From: a virus
Taxonomy: Duplodnaviria > Heunggongvirae > Uroviricota > Caudoviricetes
Reading direction: 5' to 3' (one strand)
DNA: 34,819 nucleotides
IMG/VR virus record: IMGVR_UViG_2693429713_000015
Position 1 is the first letter of the stretch, and the number at the start of each line of letters is the position of its first letter. Below the pieces are notes generated by a model, which was given only the letters and a program-made list of their open reading frames with translations, made no database searches and had not been told where the DNA came from. The position numbers were made by a program, and so were the translations under genes. This document shows positions 3,825 through 31,758 of this stretch, in pieces.

Positions 3825-4097
3825 TCAGTGCTTCCGGCTGACGGTGATGTGCAGGCCGCCTTCTGCAGTGGTTTCCATCCGGTACGGCACCTCATGCGCT
3901 GCCGTGTGGGTTAGTGTGTTCACCAGTACCTGCAGGGCAGCCGCCTTTCCGTTGGTCGCCACAATGGCCTGAGCGGTCATGCTGATTAGCGCCGTCAGGA
4001 CGTGCTTCACATCGGTGAGGTCGCGGCATTCACACTCGTTGACATAGTGTTCAACAAGGGTTCGGGTGCGCTGTCGTGCTTCCTGTGGGGTAATCAT
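3825..4097 (-). CDS. Hypothetical early protein (90 aa)
   Basis: ORF in the operon, overlapping the upstream gene by 4 nt; no recognisable motif. Confidence 0.45.
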   Translation of the reverse strand: MITPQEARQRTRTLVEHYVNECECRDLTDVKHVLTALISMTAQAIVATNGKAAALQVLVNTLTHTAAHEVPYRMETTAEGGLHITVSRKH

Positions 4098-26829: not shown

Positions 26830-29520
26830 ATGTCGGGACAGTTTTCAGTCGGCGTTGTTATCGGCGGGATGATTGGTAGCACATTCCGTTCTGCAATGAG
26901 CGGTACCCGCCGTGCGCTTGATTCCCTGAGCGATACCTCACGCCGCCTGCAGGAACGTCAGAACGCTTTAACCCGTGCAACAGAACGTTATGGTCAACTG
27001 GGTTCTTCCCGGATGCAGCATCTCAACAGCGAGCTGCTGCGGGTAAGCCGCACCATGGAGCAAATTGAGCGCCAGCAGCGCCGTCTGTCAGCGGCATCCG
27101 CTACCAGTGATGCGCTGAAAGCTAACCGCATGGCGCTGTATGGTCAGGGGATTGAAGCGTATGGCATGGCACAGACTGTTTATCATACGGTTTCCCCTGC
27201 CGTTCAGCAGTCCATGTCTTTTCAGGACAAAATGATTGATATGTCGATCACCGCAAAATATGACAATAAAACGCGGGATGGACTTGCCGGACAGATAAAA
27301 GGCTGGGCGCTTAAATACAATCAGTATCAGGATGAGCTGCAGGAGGCGGTGGGTTCACTCATCAGCGACAATATTGATAATGTGTCAGATATCGGTTTTC
27401 TGATGCCGGATATTGCCCGCGCGGCAACGGCAACACGCACGTCTGCTCAGGACTGGGCAAAAGTGGCCGCAGTCTGGCAAAACTCCCTGAAAGGTGCGGC
27501 CAGAGATTTTGGTGCCGTTCAGAATATTATGGCTTATGCCGGTGACCAGGGGTCATTTGAAATCCCGGATCAGGTCAAGTGGATGCAGTCCCTGGCCCCA
27601 ATGATGGCGGGTATTGCCAGTGGAAAAGAGGCTGTTGCTGAAATCGGGGCCAGTCTCCAGATAGCAAAAATCGGTGCAGGTTCCACCGACGAAGCAGCCA
27701 ATAATTTTAAAAACTTTCTTACCAAAATTTTTGCCCGCGATACTCAGAAACAGTTTGCTGATCTGGGTATTGATTTGCAGGGATCTATTGCGAGTTATAA
27801 AGCTGCGGGGATCTCTCCGATTGAAGGGATGTTGAGTGTTATAGAACGTTACCTCAATGCCAAAAGCCCCGAAGCGCTGGCCGGCTTCAAATCAGCCATG
27901 AAAATAAAGAATGATACGGCAAGAGATGAGGCACTTCAGGCTCTGGCGAAAAACTTTGGTCTGGGCGATATGTTCGCGGATATGCAGGTCATGGCATTTA
28001 TCCGCCCGATGCTGGCCAACATGGACAGATATCGAGAGATCCGTGCCGGTGCTCTCAGGGCTGCGGATAACGATTTGCTTGCCAGTGCTTATGATCAGCG
28101 GCTGAAATCTCCCCTTGAAGCCACTAAAACACTTATGGTCAGCAGTCGCGATCTGGCAATTACGCTGGGCGATCAATTAGCTCCATCTTTTATTTCTTTG
28201 ACTCAGGAACTGCTTCCACTCATTCAGGGGGCAAAACACTGGGTAGCGACTCACCCGCAATTTGTCAGTGGGGCTTTTAAGCTCATCAGTGCGCTCCTTG
28301 CGATTAAGATAGCGACTGTTGGTCTCAAACTGGGGCTGAATCTCCTTATTTCCCCCTTTGTAAGTGTCTGGAAAAATGCTGTTTTACTTCGGGCCAACTG
28401 GCTTCGTCTGTCGCTCGCACTGGGGCAAGGCGGTAAGCTCCGCTGGCTGGTGACCGGATTTAGCGCCGTCGCCAGAGGAGCCAGAACACTGAGTGGCGTG
28501 CTCTCCGGGGGGCTGGTTCGCGGAATTATGCTCGCCGGACGTGCTGTTCTCTGGATTGGACGTGCGCTGATGATGAATCCCATCGGTCTCGTTATCACCG
28601 CTGTCGCGGCAGCAGCTTACCTTATCTACCGCAACTGGGGGGCAGTCAGTGGCTGGTTTAAACAGCGCTGGGCAGACATTCAGGAAGCCTTTAACGGCGG
28701 CATTGTGGGAATTGGTAAGTTACTGATTAACTGGTCGCCGGCAGGCCTGCTCTATAAAGCCTTTGCAGCTGCGCTGAAATATCTTGGTGTTGATCTGCCG
28801 GCAAAGTTTACCGACTTCGGTGGCCATCTTGTCGATGGTCTGATTAACGGTATCAAAAACAAATGGGAGTCGCTCAAATCCAGTGTAACCGGAATGGGTG
28901 ACAGCATCAGTGGCTGGTTCAGCGAAAAGCTGGGCATTCATTCGCCGAGCCGCGTGTTTATGGGCTTTGGTGACAATATCGCGCAGGGGGCCGCCATTGG
29001 CCTGCAGCGGACCACTCCGCTTGCAGCTCTGGCCGGGCAGCGAATGGCCAGTGAACTGCTCCCCAGAATGCCCGTGAGCATCCAGGGGCCAGAAATACGG
29101 GATAACACTTCAGGTGTTCGCTTCAGTATGCCGTTGCCCGATATCAATGGGTTTATGTCGTCTGCTAAAAATGCGATCGGAGCCGTAATCAATAGTTTGT
29201 CTTCCATGCCCGCTATTCCGCTCTCCACCCGGGCATCGATTTTACCAGGGCAACGTCTGGCAAATGAGATGACACCGGATGTTCCCCGTATCCCCTCGCC
29301 TGAAATCCTGGCTGCCGGATATTCAGGCCGTGGTGCAGCTGCAACCGGCGGTGGAACGTCTGGTGGTATCCAGGTCAGCTTTAATCCTCAGTTTTTCCTC
29401 AATGGCAGGGAAACCACAGCGCCTGCAGGACTGACTGGTGCCCTGAATATGAGTCTGCATGAGCTGGAAAAAATGCTGGAGCGTCTGCTGGCTCAGAAAC
29501 AACGTAAGGAGTACCGCTGA
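26830..29520 (+). CDS. Tail tape measure protein
   Basis: 896 aa, helical N-terminal half, hydrophobic central segments and Gly-rich C-terminus; CCGGAGG RBS. Confidence 0.85.
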   Translation: MSGQFSVGVVIGGMIGSTFRSAMSGTRRALDSLSDTSRRLQERQNALTRATERYGQLGSSRMQHLNSELLRVSRTMEQIERQQRRLSAASATSDALKANRMALYGQGIEAYGMAQTVYHTVSPAVQQSMSFQDKMIDMSITAKYDNKTRDGLAGQIKGWALKYNQYQDELQEAVGSLISDNIDNVSDIGFLMPDIARAATATRTSAQDWAKVAAVWQNSLKGAARDFGAVQNIMAYAGDQGSFEIPDQVKWMQSLAPMMAGIASGKEAVAEIGASLQIAKIGAGSTDEAANNFKNFLTKIFARDTQKQFADLGIDLQGSIASYKAAGISPIEGMLSVIERYLNAKSPEALAGFKSAMKIKNDTARDEALQALAKNFGLGDMFADMQVMAFIRPMLANMDRYREIRAGALRAADNDLLASAYDQRLKSPLEATKTLMVSSRDLAITLGDQLAPSFISLTQELLPLIQGAKHWVATHPQFVSGAFKLISALLAIKIATVGLKLGLNLLISPFVSVWKNAVLLRANWLRLSLALGQGGKLRWLVTGFSAVARGARTLSGVLSGGLVRGIMLAGRAVLWIGRALMMNPIGLVITAVAAAAYLIYRNWGAVSGWFKQRWADIQEAFNGGIVGIGKLLINWSPAGLLYKAFAAALKYLGVDLPAKFTDFGGHLVDGLINGIKNKWESLKSSVTGMGDSISGWFSEKLGIHSPSRVFMGFGDNIAQGAAIGLQRTTPLAALAGQRMASELLPRMPVSIQGPEIRDNTSGVRFSMPLPDINGFMSSAKNAIGAVINSLSSMPAIPLSTRASILPGQRLANEMTPDVPRIPSPEILAAGYSGRGAAATGGGTSGGIQVSFNPQFFLNGRETTAPAGLTGALNMSLHELEKMLERLLAQKQRKEYR

Positions 29521-30404
29521 TGTTTGCCGTACTGGGTGATATTGAGTTTGAGCTGATTACCTACTGGGACGGCTTCGAGGCCACGTTCGGCGTCGATTAT
29601 GCGGAGCATGCCCGCATCGGGGGTAAGCCTGGCCTGCAGTTCGTCGGCGACAGGCTGGACGAAATCCAGATAACTCTGGTTTTCCATCAGCATTATTGTG
29701 TACCCGATGTGGAGCTGGCGAGACTGCGAACAGCCATGAAAGCCCATCAGGCACTGGCGCTGGTCTTCGGCAACGGTGACTATCGCGGCTGGTTCGTGAT
29801 TACCGATGTGACTGCAACCAGCGAGCAGACTGACAGTACCGGCAACGTGCTGGCTGTCAGTGCCACCGTGTCTCTCCGGGAATACACCGGTGACCCGAAA
29901 AATCCTCTGCAACCACCGGCAATACGCACGAAGCTCCCGGGTGTCGGGGCGGTCTCCGGTGCCATACCTTCACCTTCAGGGGTGGCGCAGTTCATCCGCA
30001 ACGGCGTCAACTATGCGAAACAGGCGCAGTCTGTACTCCAGACCACTATCAGCGCCGTTCGGGTGACACAGAAAATGAAGGATAACCCCGTTGTCGCACT
30101 GACCCGTGTGCCGGGGCTGATGAGCGGACTGGGTAATATCTCCGGGGCTCTGGGGAAAAGTGTTCCGGCGTTTAACGCACTCTCTGAATCCATGCCCGAT
30201 GCCATCAGTCTGGCCAGAACAGCCAGCGAAGCAGCCACGTATGTACAGCAGGCACAGTCTGCGCTGAGTGGTGTGGACAAAAGAAATATTGCAGGTGCTC
30301 TGGATACCGTTTCCGGGCAGCTTAACGCCGCCGGCACAGCATTCAACCGCATGTCTCCGGAATTAAGTGCAATGGCCGCCAGAATACTGACGAGGAGTGT
30401 GTGA
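29520..30404 (+). CDS. P2 gpU-like tail protein with a long Ala/Ser/Gly-rich C-terminal extension
   Basis: N-terminal about 130 aa (MFAVLGDIEFELITYWDGF...GWFVITDV) resembles the GpU family; about 160 aa of low-complexity extension follows. Confidence 0.6.
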   Translation: MFAVLGDIEFELITYWDGFEATFGVDYAEHARIGGKPGLQFVGDRLDEIQITLVFHQHYCVPDVELARLRTAMKAHQALALVFGNGDYRGWFVITDVTATSEQTDSTGNVLAVSATVSLREYTGDPKNPLQPPAIRTKLPGVGAVSGAIPSPSGVAQFIRNGVNYAKQAQSVLQTTISAVRVTQKMKDNPVVALTRVPGLMSGLGNISGALGKSVPAFNALSESMPDAISLARTASEAATYVQQAQSALSGVDKRNIAGALDTVSGQLNAAGTAFNRMSPELSAMAARILTRSV

Positions 30405-30616
30405 TGTTTCTTGAACATGTTACCCGTGACGGAGAGCGCTGGGATTCGCTGGCATGGCAGTACTACGGTGACCCGCTGGGCTATCCCCGGATTATTGCCG
30501 CCAATCCGCACGTGGCCATCACGCCGGTGCTGCCCTCCGGGCTGTTGTTACTGATCCCGGTGATTGAGGCTGAAGAAGCCCGTACAGAAGAGGATATTGC
30601 CCCATGGCTGAGATAA
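30401..30616 (+). CDS. Tail protein X-like (P2 gpX family)
   Basis: 71 aa; GERWDSLAWQYYGDP motif. Confidence 0.6.
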   Translation: MMFLEHVTRDGERWDSLAWQYYGDPLGYPRIIAANPHVAITPVLPSGLLLLIPVIEAEEARTEEDIAPWLR

Positions 30617-31758
30617 ACAGCACTGCGCAAGTCACATCAGCGTTAACCGGCGTCAGCGATGTGCTGACACCGGTGTTCACTTTGTGGTATCTGCAGAAAA
30701 ACATCACCTCTGATATCGCGCCTTATGTCACCCGTGTGACCTGGAGCGATAACATCAAAAATGAGTCCGATACCATTGAGGTGGAGCTGGACGACACCGA
30801 TGGCCGCTGGCTGGATAAATGGTATCCGGGCAAGGGTGACACGCTGACGCTGAAAATGGGCTATCAGGGCGAGAAGCTGCTGTCCTGCGGTACGTTCTCT
30901 ATAGACGAGATCGAAGTGAGTTCGCCCGCTTCCGTTGTTTCTATCCGTGGGGTGGCCACCTCGGTTAACAGTGCCCTGCGGACTAAAACCAGTCGTGGTT
31001 TTGAGAACACCACGCTGGCAGCTGTTGCGGGGCGGATTGCCAGAAAGCACCGACTGAAACTGGTGGGCAGCATTGAGTCCATCAGAATCGACCGGGTGAC
31101 CCAGTATGCTGAAACCGACGTGGGTTTTCTGCGCCGGCTGGCCAGCGAGTATGGTTATGCAGTGAAAGTGGTCAGTGACCAGCTGATTTTTTCTCATCTG
31201 GCCACACTGCGCAGTCAGGAGCCGGTCAGGCAGTTAAAACCGCAGGATGTGGCCCGCTTTTCCCTGCGTGACACCATCAACCGGGTCTATAAATCTGCAA
31301 AGGTAAAACACCAGAAAAGCAGCAGTAAAAAACTGATCGTCTACGAAGCTGATGGTGGTACCCGTGAAAGCGACAAAAAGCTCAAAGGTGGTAAGGTTAC
31401 CAGCGCTGACTCACTTAAAGTTAACAGCCGCGTCAGCGACCCGGACAGTGCCCGGATTAAAGCGGATTCAGCACTGGCCAGACATAACGAATACCAGCAG
31501 AACGGCTCCCTGACGCTGACGGGAACACCTCAACTGACAGCAGGCAACAAAATTGAACTGGTGGGTTTTGGGCAGTTATCCGGGCCATGGCTCATAACCA
31601 CTGCCCGCCATGCGTTTGACCGTAACAGCGGCTACACCACAGAGCTGGAAGTGGCACGGGGGCCAGTCACAAGAGGGAAAAAACAAAAAACTCAGAAACT
31701 CACGGTTTATCACCCGGATGGCAGTACATCGACGGTGATTAAGGAGAAGAAAAAATGA
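30604..31758 (+). CDS. Tail/baseplate hub protein (P2 gpD-like)
   Basis: 384 aa; position after U and X and before V. Confidence 0.7.
   Translation: MAEINSTAQVTSALTGVSDVLTPVFTLWYLQKNITSDIAPYVTRVTWSDNIKNESDTIEVELDDTDGRWLDKWYPGKGDTLTLKMGYQGEKLLSCGTFSIDEIEVSSPASVVSIRGVATSVNSALRTKTSRGFENTTLAAVAGRIARKHRLKLVGSIESIRIDRVTQYAETDVGFLRRLASEYGYAVKVVSDQLIFSHLATLRSQEPVRQLKPQDVARFSLRDTINRVYKSAKVKHQKSSSKKLIVYEADGGTRESDKKLKGGKVTSADSLKVNSRVSDPDSARIKADSALARHNEYQQNGSLTLTGTPQLTAGNKIELVGFGQLSGPWLITTARHAFDRNSGYTTELEVARGPVTRGKKQKTQKLTVYHPDGSTSTVIKEKKK

What the first reader, a model, noticed from the sequence alone, without database searches (positions are those of the whole stretch)
29520..30404. GpU-like tail protein fused to a 160-residue Ala/Ser/Gly-rich extension
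The first about 130 residues look like a P2 gpU-type tail protein; the remaining half is low-complexity (runs such as GAVSGAIPSPSGVAQ and SALSGVDKRNIAGALDTVSGQLNAAG). The extension may correspond to the C-terminal part of Mu N-type proteins or be a lineage-specific addition.
Basis: inference. Interest (0 to 1): 0.35.

Follow-up and report, generated by a model that had tools for sequence, protein, structure and literature searches.

The report
Tail-tube initiator with helical leg
This is an ordinary, intact tail gene of a BcepMu-type transposable prophage of E. coli: a P2 gpU-type tube-initiator protein whose conserved C-terminal half is predicted to be a four-helix bundle, not a low-complexity tail or an accidental gene fusion.

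Summary
The ORF at 29520-30404 (+, 294 aa) is real. It lies between the tape-measure gene and gpX/gpD in a BcepMu-like transposable prophage, in the order T-U-X-D-V-W-J-I. Residues 6-123 match Pfam Phage_P2_GpU (E 7e-39). The whole length matches PHROG 788, and homologues down to about 29% identity (BcepMu gp45, phiE255, Pseudomonas, Pasteurella and Ralstonia phages) match end to end. So the extension is a conserved domain, not a frameshift fusion.

It is not low-complexity (3.84 bits against 4.04 for the N-domain; no SEG-type window). AlphaFold2 predicts a Pro-rich linker and then four long helices (pLDDT 80-92). These are two homologous alpha-hairpin units, and longer relatives carry more units.

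No sequence or fold-level homology to the Mu N (gp43) helix-rich region was found. The resemblance is only in layout. Mu gp43 and Milano gp25 are tube domain + helical domain + LysM in one chain. Here LysM is the separate, translationally coupled gpX.

Most likely role: a baseplate-docking leg of the tube-initiator hexamer. This is an inference. Interest is low.

The parts
29520..30404 (+). Whole gene: long gpU-type tail-tube initiator (294 aa plus stop). Orthologue of BcepMu gp45 and of 'tail protein U' of Escherichia phage PhiKM.
   Evidence: ORF. Pfam GpU. Full-length phrog_788 match. 99.3% identity to the PhiKM protein and 46.5% full-length identity to BcepMu gp45.
29520..29891 (+). Residues 1-124: tube-like beta domain (GpU, PF06995). 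It is acidic, with net charge -9.
   Evidence: Pfam E 7.3e-39. The AF2 model shows beta strands plus one helix. Foldseek hits baseplate chains of pyocin R2, phiCD508, PVC, AFP, A-1(L), E217, P1 and diffocin structures. Mean pairwise identity is 66%. Charge.
29892..29975 (+). Residues 125-152: Pro-rich linker. The motif PKNPLxPPA is conserved; the rest varies in length.
   Evidence: P129, L130, P133 and A134 are nearly invariant and P140 is invariant in 23 homologues. Insertions occur only here. pLDDT is below 50.
29976..30185 (+). Residues 153-222: alpha-hairpin unit A (helices 155-184 and 190-219), with the conserved turn motif K-x-N-P-x-x-A-L.
   Evidence: AF2 helices with pLDDT 70-92. P190 and A193 are invariant. 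hhalign of unit A against unit B gives probability 91%, E 1e-6.
30186..30401 (+). Residues 223-294: alpha-hairpin unit B (helices 226-249 and 257-290). With unit A it forms the predicted four-helix bundle, which is basic (net charge about +6).
   Evidence: Helices. Internal duplication. Units are repeated as A-B-A-B in the 462-aa relative P0225. Charge is +3 to +9 in 22 of 23 homologues.
30393..30406 (+). U/X junction AGGAGTGTGTGATG. It holds the Shine-Dalgarno site for gpX, a (GT)3 tract, and the gpU stop TGA overlapping the gpX ATG. This gives translational coupling and is also the site of rare in-frame U-X fusion alleles.
   Evidence: Sequence. The TGATG overlap is conserved in BcepMu and Komp_PAO1_1. 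A 2-nt deletion in S. Agona CP051402 produces the 364-aa fusion.
30404..30616 (+). gpX: 70-aa LysM-type 'glue' protein (Phage_tail_X). It is the module that is fused to the C-terminus in Mu gp43 and Milano gp25.
   Evidence: Pfam PF05489, E 3.7e-18. All but two of the 63 homologue clusters carry a precomputed PF05489 hit and none carries another domain; full-length members are 67-84 aa and the shorter ones are fragments. Roles taken from PMC10811340 and bioRxiv 10.64898/2026.09.14.750843.
26830..29520 (+). Tape-measure protein (896 aa), immediately upstream. Its stop overlaps the gpU start (TGATG).
   Evidence: Pfam PhageMin_Tail, E 1.7e-20. Sequence.
30604..31758 (+). gpD-type baseplate hub (384 aa), on which the tube-initiator ring is expected to sit.
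   Evidence: Pfam Phage_GPD. phrog_52 E 5.7e-132. The P2 arrangement is described in bioRxiv 10.64898/2026.09.14.750843.

Best explanation
The gene encodes the tail-tube initiator of a BcepMu-type contractile tail. By analogy with P2 gpU, six copies of the N-terminal tube-like domain form the ring that joins the gpD hub trimer to the first tube ring.

The C-terminal 170 residues are a conserved second module: a flexible Pro-rich linker followed by a four-helix bundle built from two duplicated alpha-hairpins. The bundle most likely hangs down and outward from the ring and packs into the space between the hub and the gpJ/gpI wedges, next to the LysM glue protein gpX. There it would lock the wedges to the central hub until contraction. 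This is the job done by the middle helical domain of the single-chain initiators Mu gp43 and Milano gp25, and by the single C-terminal helix of P2 gpU.

Shown: the domain identities, the conservation, the predicted helical fold and the gene context. Inferred: the location and contacts of the bundle in the baseplate.
For: Domain identity and conservation:
- GpU domain and full-length PHROG 788 match.
- Homologues of the same length from 88% down to about 29% identity in Enterobacterales, Burkholderia, Ralstonia, Pseudomonas and Pasteurella.
- The extension profile finds the domain only C-terminal to GpU domains. 54 of 100 hits are 275-322 aa proteins matched from about residue 126-170 to their end. 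Five longer hits also start with PF06995. The remainder are fragments or coiled-coil noise.

Predicted fold:
- AF2 gives four helices with pLDDT 80-92 and pTM 0.68 for the domain alone.
- The two hairpins are homologous (hhalign 91%), and unit number varies between relatives.

Context:
- Gene order is T-U-X-D-V-W-J-I, with TGATG coupling at both the T/U and U/X junctions.
- The best whole-length Foldseek hits are the single-chain initiators of Milano (8fqc_U1) and 7-7-1 (9rku_A1, which I take to be gp114, the 398-aa DNA_circ_N protein), and 'DNA circulation' and LysM proteins in BFVD.
- Published structures place those helical domains in the wedge groove (PMC10811340; PMC11915804). They also show that the C-terminal helix of P2 gpU contacts the gpJ/gpI triplex electrostatically.
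- The bundle is basic (+3 to +9 in 22 of 23 homologues), while gpX (-6) and gpJ (-21) are acidic.
- A head-less, transposase-less Salmonella tail cluster (STM4196-4219) keeps the long form. This fits a structural role better than a DNA-handling role.
Against: - No structure or experiment exists for any member of this family.
- The helical domain shows no detectable sequence similarity to Mu gp43 (hhalign below 1%).
- It shows no fold similarity specific to baseplate proteins: the extension-only Foldseek search returns only generic or designed four-helix bundles, none with E <= 1e-3.
- Whole-length Foldseek TM-scores are low (0.2-0.3), so those hits are largely driven by the tube domain.
- The related transposable Pseudomonas phage Bise has the same gene order and a 52%-identical tube domain. 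Its gpU is only 204 aa and its tail is non-helical by its sequence composition, which is Pro-, Thr- and Lys-rich; it was not modelled. So the bundle is dispensable in at least one relative.
- Charge complementarity is weak evidence.
Confidence: 0.6

Rival explanations
1. The helical bundle is a deployable or ejected module, not a static strut. It would ride on the tip of the tube through the outer membrane. It would then act in the periplasm or cytoplasm, either by inserting into the inner membrane or, like Mu N (gp43), by binding and protecting the ends of the infecting linear DNA of a transposable phage.
For: - Mu's DNA-circularization protein N is itself the tube initiator (PMC11915804).
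- Every full-length match in the phage collection whose whole record I examined is a transposable phage with transposase, a MuB-like ATPase and Gam: the window, PhiKM, Komp_PAO1_1 and AFS-2018a. BcepMu and phiE255 are the type Mu-like phages, which I state from my own knowledge.
- The bundle is consistently basic.
- The closest natural structural analogues include lipid-binding four-helix bundles such as TIP47. This is a weak point because the fold is generic.
Against: - Transposable phage Bise lacks the bundle.
- A Salmonella tail-only cluster without head or transposition genes retains it.
- There is no homology to the Mu gp43 helix-rich region, which is acidic (-11) rather than basic.
- No DNA-binding or transmembrane motif was found (Pfam and NCBIfam give no hit).
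- Non-transposable Milano and 7-7-1 also have helical initiator domains, so such domains do not imply DNA circularization.
Confidence: 0.12
2. The ORF is an artefact: a sequencing frameshift or a recent deletion has fused a short gpU to a separate downstream gene.
For: - P2 gpU is only 159 aa and Bise gpU is 204 aa.
- Genuine deletion-generated fusions do occur at the next junction, between U and X.
Against: - The 8.8-kb region around the gene is present in 682 of 5426 complete E. coli genomes. 465 of them cover at least 80% of it, and the best hit is 100% identical.
- Homologues of 292-310 aa are found from many genera.
- A PHROG profile covers the full length.
- The extension never occurs as an independent full-length gene: only fragments and GpU-linked copies were found.
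Confidence: 0.01
3. The extension is an intrinsically disordered, compositionally biased spacer with no defined fold.
For: - It is Ala/Ser/Gly-enriched.
- The linker 125-152 has pLDDT below 50 and varies in length.
- Some databases mislabel homologues as 'methyl-accepting chemotaxis protein', which is typical of composition-driven hits.
Against: - The entropy is near normal and there is no SEG window.
- Four helices have pLDDT 80-92 and the domain alone has pTM 0.68.
- Hydrophobic and turn positions are invariant: P190, A193, L211, L249 and R292.
- The length is constant across 45-88% identity.
Confidence: 0.04

Closest known systems
BcepMu gp45 / Escherichia phage PhiKM 'tail protein U' (PHROG 788, genus Bcepmuvirus)
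   Same: Orthologues. They have the same length and the same two-part architecture, with 46.5% and 99.3% identity over the full length. The neighbours are the same: tape measure upstream, then gpX and gpD downstream.
   Different: Nothing material. These records annotate the protein only as 'tail protein' or 'P2 gpU protein' and do not describe the helical domain.
P2 gpU (tube initiator, 159 aa)
   Same: The tube-like domain is homologous: Pfam GpU, and hhalign aligns residues 28-121 to P2 29-122. Both genes follow the tape-measure gene; in P2 gpD comes next, while gpX lies elsewhere in the genome. In P2, six copies sit on the gpD trimer, and a C-terminal helix contacts the wedge triplex (bioRxiv 10.64898/2026.09.14.750843).
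   Different: P2 has only about 30 C-terminal residues (one helix, ordered in 3 of 6 copies). Here there are 170 residues forming a four-helix bundle. No alignment was found beyond residue 122.
Mu gp43 (protein N, 'DNA circularization protein', PF07157)
   Same: It has the same position in the gene order (after the tape measure, before the hub) and the same layout of a tube-like domain followed by an Ala/Ser/Thr-rich helical region. It is the tube initiator, with its helix-rich domain packed between wedges (PMC11915804). Both phages are transposable.
   Different: It belongs to a different Pfam family, and there is no profile-profile similarity even in the tube domain. Mu gp43 is 495 aa. Its helix-rich domain has 8 helices, includes the LysM module and is acidic. 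Here LysM is a separate protein and the bundle is basic.
Milano gp25 baseplate centrepiece (8fqc) and 7-7-1 gp114 (9rku)
   Same: These are the best whole-length structural matches (E 3e-4 and 5e-4, 343-355 aligned columns). Their layout is an N-terminal tube domain, a middle helical domain embedded in the wedge groove, and a C-terminal LysM (PMC10811340).
   Different: TM-scores are only 0.20-0.26 with rmsd above 23 A. The helical domain alone does not retrieve them. They are single-chain, and 7-7-1 gp114 is of the DNA_circ_N family.

Membership tests
Phage_P2_GpU (PF06995) / contractile-tail tube initiator | Sequence match to the family profile above the curated threshold | tested here: met
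   132.6 bits against a cut-off of 27.5, E 7.3e-39, residues 6-123 over profile positions 1-119 of 120.
Phage_P2_GpU (PF06995) / contractile-tail tube initiator | Tube-protein-like beta fold | tested here: met
   The AF2 model has strands 2-12, 48-56 and 78-121 plus helix 62-74. Foldseek hits baseplate chains of pyocin R2, phiCD508, PVC, AFP, A-1(L), E217, P1 and diffocin structures with probability 0.95-1.0. I assign these chains as tube initiators from the listed lengths and from my own knowledge of those structures. Residues 14-46 have low confidence.
Phage_P2_GpU (PF06995) / contractile-tail tube initiator | Gene located between the tape measure and the gpX/gpD hub genes of a contractile-tail module | tested here: met
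   The order is T (26830-29520), U, X (30404-30616), D (30604-31758), V, W, J, I, with sheath and tube genes upstream.
Phage_P2_GpU (PF06995) / contractile-tail tube initiator | Hexameric ring between the hub trimer and the first tube ring in the virion | not testable with these tools
   This needs cryo-EM or multimer modelling. It is known for P2 gpU.
PHROG 788 (long gpU of BcepMu-like phages) | Full-length match including the C-terminal 170 residues | tested here: met
   E 3.3e-134, residues 1-293 over profile positions 1-296 of 297. The extension alone gives E 8.8e-45 over profile positions 148-296.
Mu N / DNA_circ_N (PF07157) tube initiators | Match to the DNA_circ_N profile, or profile-profile similarity to the Mu gp43 family | tested here: not met
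   No PF07157 hit, whereas Mu gp43 itself gives E 5.8e-26. hhalign probability is 0.4% for the whole protein and 0.7% for the extension.
Mu N / DNA_circ_N (PF07157) tube initiators | LysM module at the C-terminus of the same polypeptide | tested here: not met
   LysM/Phage_tail_X is the separate gene gpX. Fusion occurs only in rare 2-nt deletion alleles: P0001, P0003 and P0004, each with 1-3 member sequences.
Mu N / DNA_circ_N (PF07157) tube initiators | Helix-rich middle domain of the same fold | tested here: inconclusive
   The whole-length model hits Milano gp25, 7-7-1 gp114 and BFVD 'DNA circulation' proteins over 286-374 columns, but at TM 0.2-0.3. The extension-only model retrieves no baseplate protein in the top 50.
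Mu N / DNA_circ_N (PF07157) tube initiators | Binds and circularizes the ends of infecting phage DNA | not testable with these tools
   This is a biochemical property. No computational proxy was found.
Low-complexity / intrinsically disordered region | Low sequence entropy and lack of predicted structure | tested here: not met
   3.84 bits, with no 12-residue window below 2.2 bits. Four helices have pLDDT 80-92. Only the linker 125-152 behaves as disordered.

The most novel reading that the evidence does not exclude
In BcepMu-type transposable phages the basic, expandable alpha-hairpin bundle on the tube initiator is the functional counterpart of Mu protein N. It would be carried on the tube tip across the envelope and released with the DNA, where it protects or joins the host-derived ends of the infecting genome (or opens the inner membrane). 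It would have evolved independently of the Mu gp43 helix-rich domain.
Probability: 0.1. Interest if true: 0.55.

Novelty: new member of a known kind. Interest (0 to 1): 0.2.

Why it matters
The practical value is mainly for annotation:

- The gene can be named a tail-tube initiator (long gpU type).
- Its second half should be described as a conserved four-helix, duplicated-hairpin domain. It should not be labelled 'low complexity' or 'methyl-accepting chemotaxis protein', as some records do.

The gene also fills in an intermediate in a series of initiator architectures:

- P2: short gpU plus a separate LysM protein gpX.
- BcepMu type: gpU with a helical domain plus a separate gpX.
- Mu and Milano: tube domain, helical domain and LysM all in one chain.

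This series suggests that simple baseplates fill the hub-wedge gap with interchangeable, non-homologous helical modules. If the bundle turned out to have a Mu N-like DNA-end function, it would bear on how transposable phages other than Mu protect their infecting DNA. Nothing here points strongly that way.

Tried and rejected
1. Sequence searches of the PDB. With the single protein and with the family profile, the hits were only HtpG fragments and designed antiparallel coiled coils in the helical region, with no phage protein. These are compositional or heptad matches, not homology.

2. Other family libraries. NCBIfam gave no family. Pfam gave nothing for the extension. The precomputed tag PF27724.1 on the Ralstonia homologue P0096 is not in the local Pfam copy and could not be resolved.

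3. hhalign of the family (A1) and of the extension (A2) against a 24-sequence Mu gp43 family alignment (A3), and against Mu gp43 alone. Probability was below 1% in each case.

4. hhalign against P2 gpU. It aligns only the tube domain, so equivalence of the first helix here to the P2 C-terminal helix is not shown.

5. Extension-only AF2 model followed by Foldseek against the PDB, meant to test specific similarity to the Milano or Mu helical domains. It returned only generic bundles.

6. A planned AF2 model of the natural U-X fusion (P0001) with a block alignment of U and X homologues. MAFFT misaligned the U rows, with only 160 of 294 residues in register. The alignment was therefore not used, and the last structure job went to the extension alone.

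7. The hypothesis that the long form tracks the transposable lifestyle. It holds for the phage records examined, but is broken by Bise (transposable, short gpU) and by the head-less Salmonella cluster (long gpU, no transposase).

8. Buttner et al. 2016 (Mu baseplate assembly) could not be retrieved from the library.

9. Programmed frameshifting at the U/X junction was considered and set aside. There is no canonical slippery heptamer, and a conserved Shine-Dalgarno site plus TGATG overlap explains the junction as translational coupling.
Full report
**What is there**

The window holds an ATG-started ORF at 29520..30404 on the + strand, 294 codons. Its start codon shares one base with the TGA of the preceding 896-aa ORF (26830..29520), which is a tape-measure protein (Pfam PhageMin_Tail). 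Its own TGA (30402-30404) shares one base with the ATG at 30404 of a 70-aa Phage_tail_X (LysM) protein. Downstream come the gpD hub, gpV spike, gpW, gpJ and gpI. Upstream are sheath and tube genes. Further upstream are an rve-family transposase, a MuB-like AAA+ protein and Gam.

The window is therefore a BcepMu-type (genus Bcepmuvirus) transposable prophage with a P2-like tail module. The protein is 99.3% identical to 'tail protein U' of Escherichia phage PhiKM. It is 46.5% identical, end to end, to BcepMu gp45. The surrounding 8.8 kb is found in 682 of 5426 complete E. coli genomes.

**Check of the observation**

The N-terminal claim holds. Residues 6-123 match PF06995 Phage_P2_GpU at E 7.3e-39.

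The description of the remainder needs correction. Its composition is Ala 15%, Ser 11%, Gly 8%. Its entropy is 3.84 bits, against 4.04 for the N-domain. No 12-residue window falls below the SEG trigger. It is not low-complexity in the usual sense.

It is also not a fusion artefact:
- PHROG 788 covers residues 1-293 over 296 of 297 profile positions (E 3e-134). The extension alone scores E 9e-45 against the second half of that profile.
- Twenty-two homologues of 45-88% identity, from Enterobacterales, Burkholderia, Ralstonia, Chromobacterium and others, are 292-310 aa long and align throughout. P190, A193, L211, L249 and R292 are invariant in the extension.
- Phage proteins at 29-31% identity (Pasteurella AFS-2018a, Pseudomonas Komp_PAO1_1) still match over the full length.
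- Mean pairwise identity falls from 66% in the tube domain to 46% in the linker and 40% in the helical part. The extension evolves faster but is clearly constrained.

**Anatomy of the extension**

AlphaFold2 on the family alignment gives three parts:
- a beta-rich N-domain, residues 1-121;
- a low-confidence Pro-rich linker, residues 125-152;
- four long helices: 155-184, 190-219, 226-249 and 257-290.

Modelled alone, the extension reaches mean pLDDT 78, with 80-92 in the helices, and pTM 0.68.

The two helix-turn-helix halves (153-222 and 223-294) are homologous to each other (hhalign probability 91%, E 1e-6). The same program gives below 1% for the compositionally similar Mu region, which serves as a control.

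I searched a profile of the extension alone against 1.84 billion representative proteins. It found only 100 hits at E <= 1e-3:
- 54 are proteins of 275-322 aa, matched from about residue 126-170 to their C-terminus.
- Five are longer (349-462 aa). All five begin with a GpU domain and carry extra hairpin units. P0225, for example, is A-B-A-B.
- The rest are fragments or large coiled-coil and TPR proteins that are plainly compositional noise.

So the domain exists essentially only behind GpU tube domains, and its unit number is expandable. The bundle is basic (+3 to +9 in 22 of 23 homologues) while the tube domain is acidic.

**Relation to Mu N**

Recent structures give the frame for comparison.
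- P2 gpU is the tube initiator: six copies sit on the gpD trimer, and a short C-terminal helix touches the gpJ/gpI triplex. gpX is the LysM 'glue' (bioRxiv 10.64898/2026.09.14.750843).
- Mu gp43 (protein N) is also the tube initiator. It consists of a tube-like domain plus a helix-rich domain of eight helices that includes a LysM module and is wedged between the baseplate wedges (PMC11915804).
- Milano gp25 has an N-terminal tube domain, a middle helical domain embedded in the wedge groove, and a C-terminal LysM domain (PMC10811340).

The best whole-length Foldseek hits of the model are these single-chain initiators. In the PDB they are Milano 8fqc_U1 and 7-7-1 9rku_A1. I take the latter to be gp114, the 398-aa protein annotated DNA_circ_N. 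In BFVD they are 'DNA circulation' and LysM proteins of about 405-425 aa.

The similarity is weak, however. TM-scores are 0.2-0.3. Profile-profile comparison with a Mu gp43 family alignment finds nothing, not even in the tube domain. The extension model alone retrieves only generic or designed up-down four-helix bundles, with no baseplate protein in the top 50 and no hit at E <= 1e-3.

The honest statement is therefore that the extension occupies the same place in the architecture as the middle helical domain of Mu- and Milano-type initiators, but common origin is not shown. The real C-terminal part of Mu N, the LysM module, corresponds to the separate gene gpX.

A few database entries do join U and X into one 364-aa protein. 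In Salmonella Agona CP051402 this is caused by a 2-nt deletion in the (GT)3 tract of the junction AGGAGTGTGTGATG. These alleles are rare, with 1-3 sequences each, and may be non-functional or errors. They do show how easily the Mu-like single-chain layout can arise.

**Most likely function**

I conclude that the protein is the tube initiator, and that its bundle is a baseplate-docking leg. It would fill the hub-wedge gap and hold the wedges, next to gpX.

Supporting this:
- the published location of analogous domains in Mu and Milano;
- the translational coupling of T, U and X;
- the basic bundle facing acidic gpX (-6) and gpJ (-21);
- retention of the long form (STM4210) in a head-less, transposase-less tail cluster of Salmonella.

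Weakening it:
- there is no structure for any family member;
- the transposable Pseudomonas phage Bise has the same gene order and a 52%-identical tube domain, but only a short tail on its gpU. That tail looks non-helical from its sequence composition and was not modelled.

**Rivals**

- A Mu N-like ejected or DNA-end-binding role cannot be excluded. Every long-form phage record whose whole genome I examined is transposable, and the domain is basic. Bise and the Salmonella cluster argue against a necessary link. I give this rival about 0.12.
- A frameshift artefact is refuted by the evidence above.
- Simple disorder is very unlikely given the helix predictions and the conserved positions.

**Novelty and verdict**

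The gene belongs to an existing, annotated family (BcepMu gp45, PHROG 788). Its class, the contractile-tail tube initiator, is structurally well understood. What is not yet described in the sources I could search is the duplicated-hairpin four-helix domain of this subfamily, and its place as an intermediate between the P2 and Mu/Milano layouts. That is a modest annotation-level insight. Interest is about 0.2.

Noticed in passing
window 30393-30406; L010 around 3870-3885: Rare 364-aa gpU-gpX fusion proteins exist in the databases (P0001, P0003, P0004). In Salmonella Agona CP051402 the cause is a 2-nt deletion in the (GT)3 tract of the stop/start overlap AGGAGTGTGTGATG. This recreates a Mu N-like chain of tube domain, helical domain and LysM. 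Whether these alleles are functional or are sequencing errors is unknown.
   Followed up: partly
L009 12188-30958 (Salmonella Infantis SARB27; LT2 loci STM4196-STM4219): This is a head-less and transposase-less BcepMu-type tail cluster. It has a Mor activator, a lytic transglycosylase, sheath, tube, tape measure, long gpU, X, D and V, then a gtrA/gtrB-like O-antigen glucosylation cassette (plus one adjacent unnamed gene) inserted before W, J, I and the fibre genes. It looks like a domesticated tail or tailocin-like remnant.
   Followed up: no
P0225 (462 aa), P0232 (451 aa), P0246 (354 aa), P0268 (378 aa), P0234 (349 aa): These are longer members of the family with extra copies of the ~70-residue alpha-hairpin unit. 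P0225, for example, is A-B-A-B. The 'leg' is therefore a modular, length-variable repeat array.
   Followed up: yes
L008 26801-27415 and 35606-36637 (Pseudomonas phage Bise): This transposable phage has the same T-U-X-D-V-W-J order, but its gpU is only 204 aa with a Pro/Thr/Lys-rich tail that looks non-helical from its sequence (not modelled). The record also carries a reverse-transcriptase gene downstream of the tail-fibre region, possibly a diversity-generating retroelement.
   Followed up: no
window 29506-29522 and 30393-30406: Both the T/U and the U/X junctions are TGATG one-base overlaps preceded by AGGAG-type Shine-Dalgarno sites. X and D overlap by 13 nt. The tape measure, initiator, glue and hub genes appear to be translationally coupled.
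   Followed up: partly
database annotations seen: There are propagated misannotations. Long gpU homologues are labelled 'methyl-accepting chemotaxis protein' (Klebsiella phage KP12; Salmonella Typhi P0084). Many Mu N homologues are labelled 'multidrug DMT transporter permease'.
   Followed up: no
P0096 (Ralstonia solanacearum homologue, 303 aa): It carries a precomputed Pfam tag PF27724.1 that is absent from the local Pfam copy. This may be a newly built family covering the helical extension, but it could not be checked.
   Followed up: no
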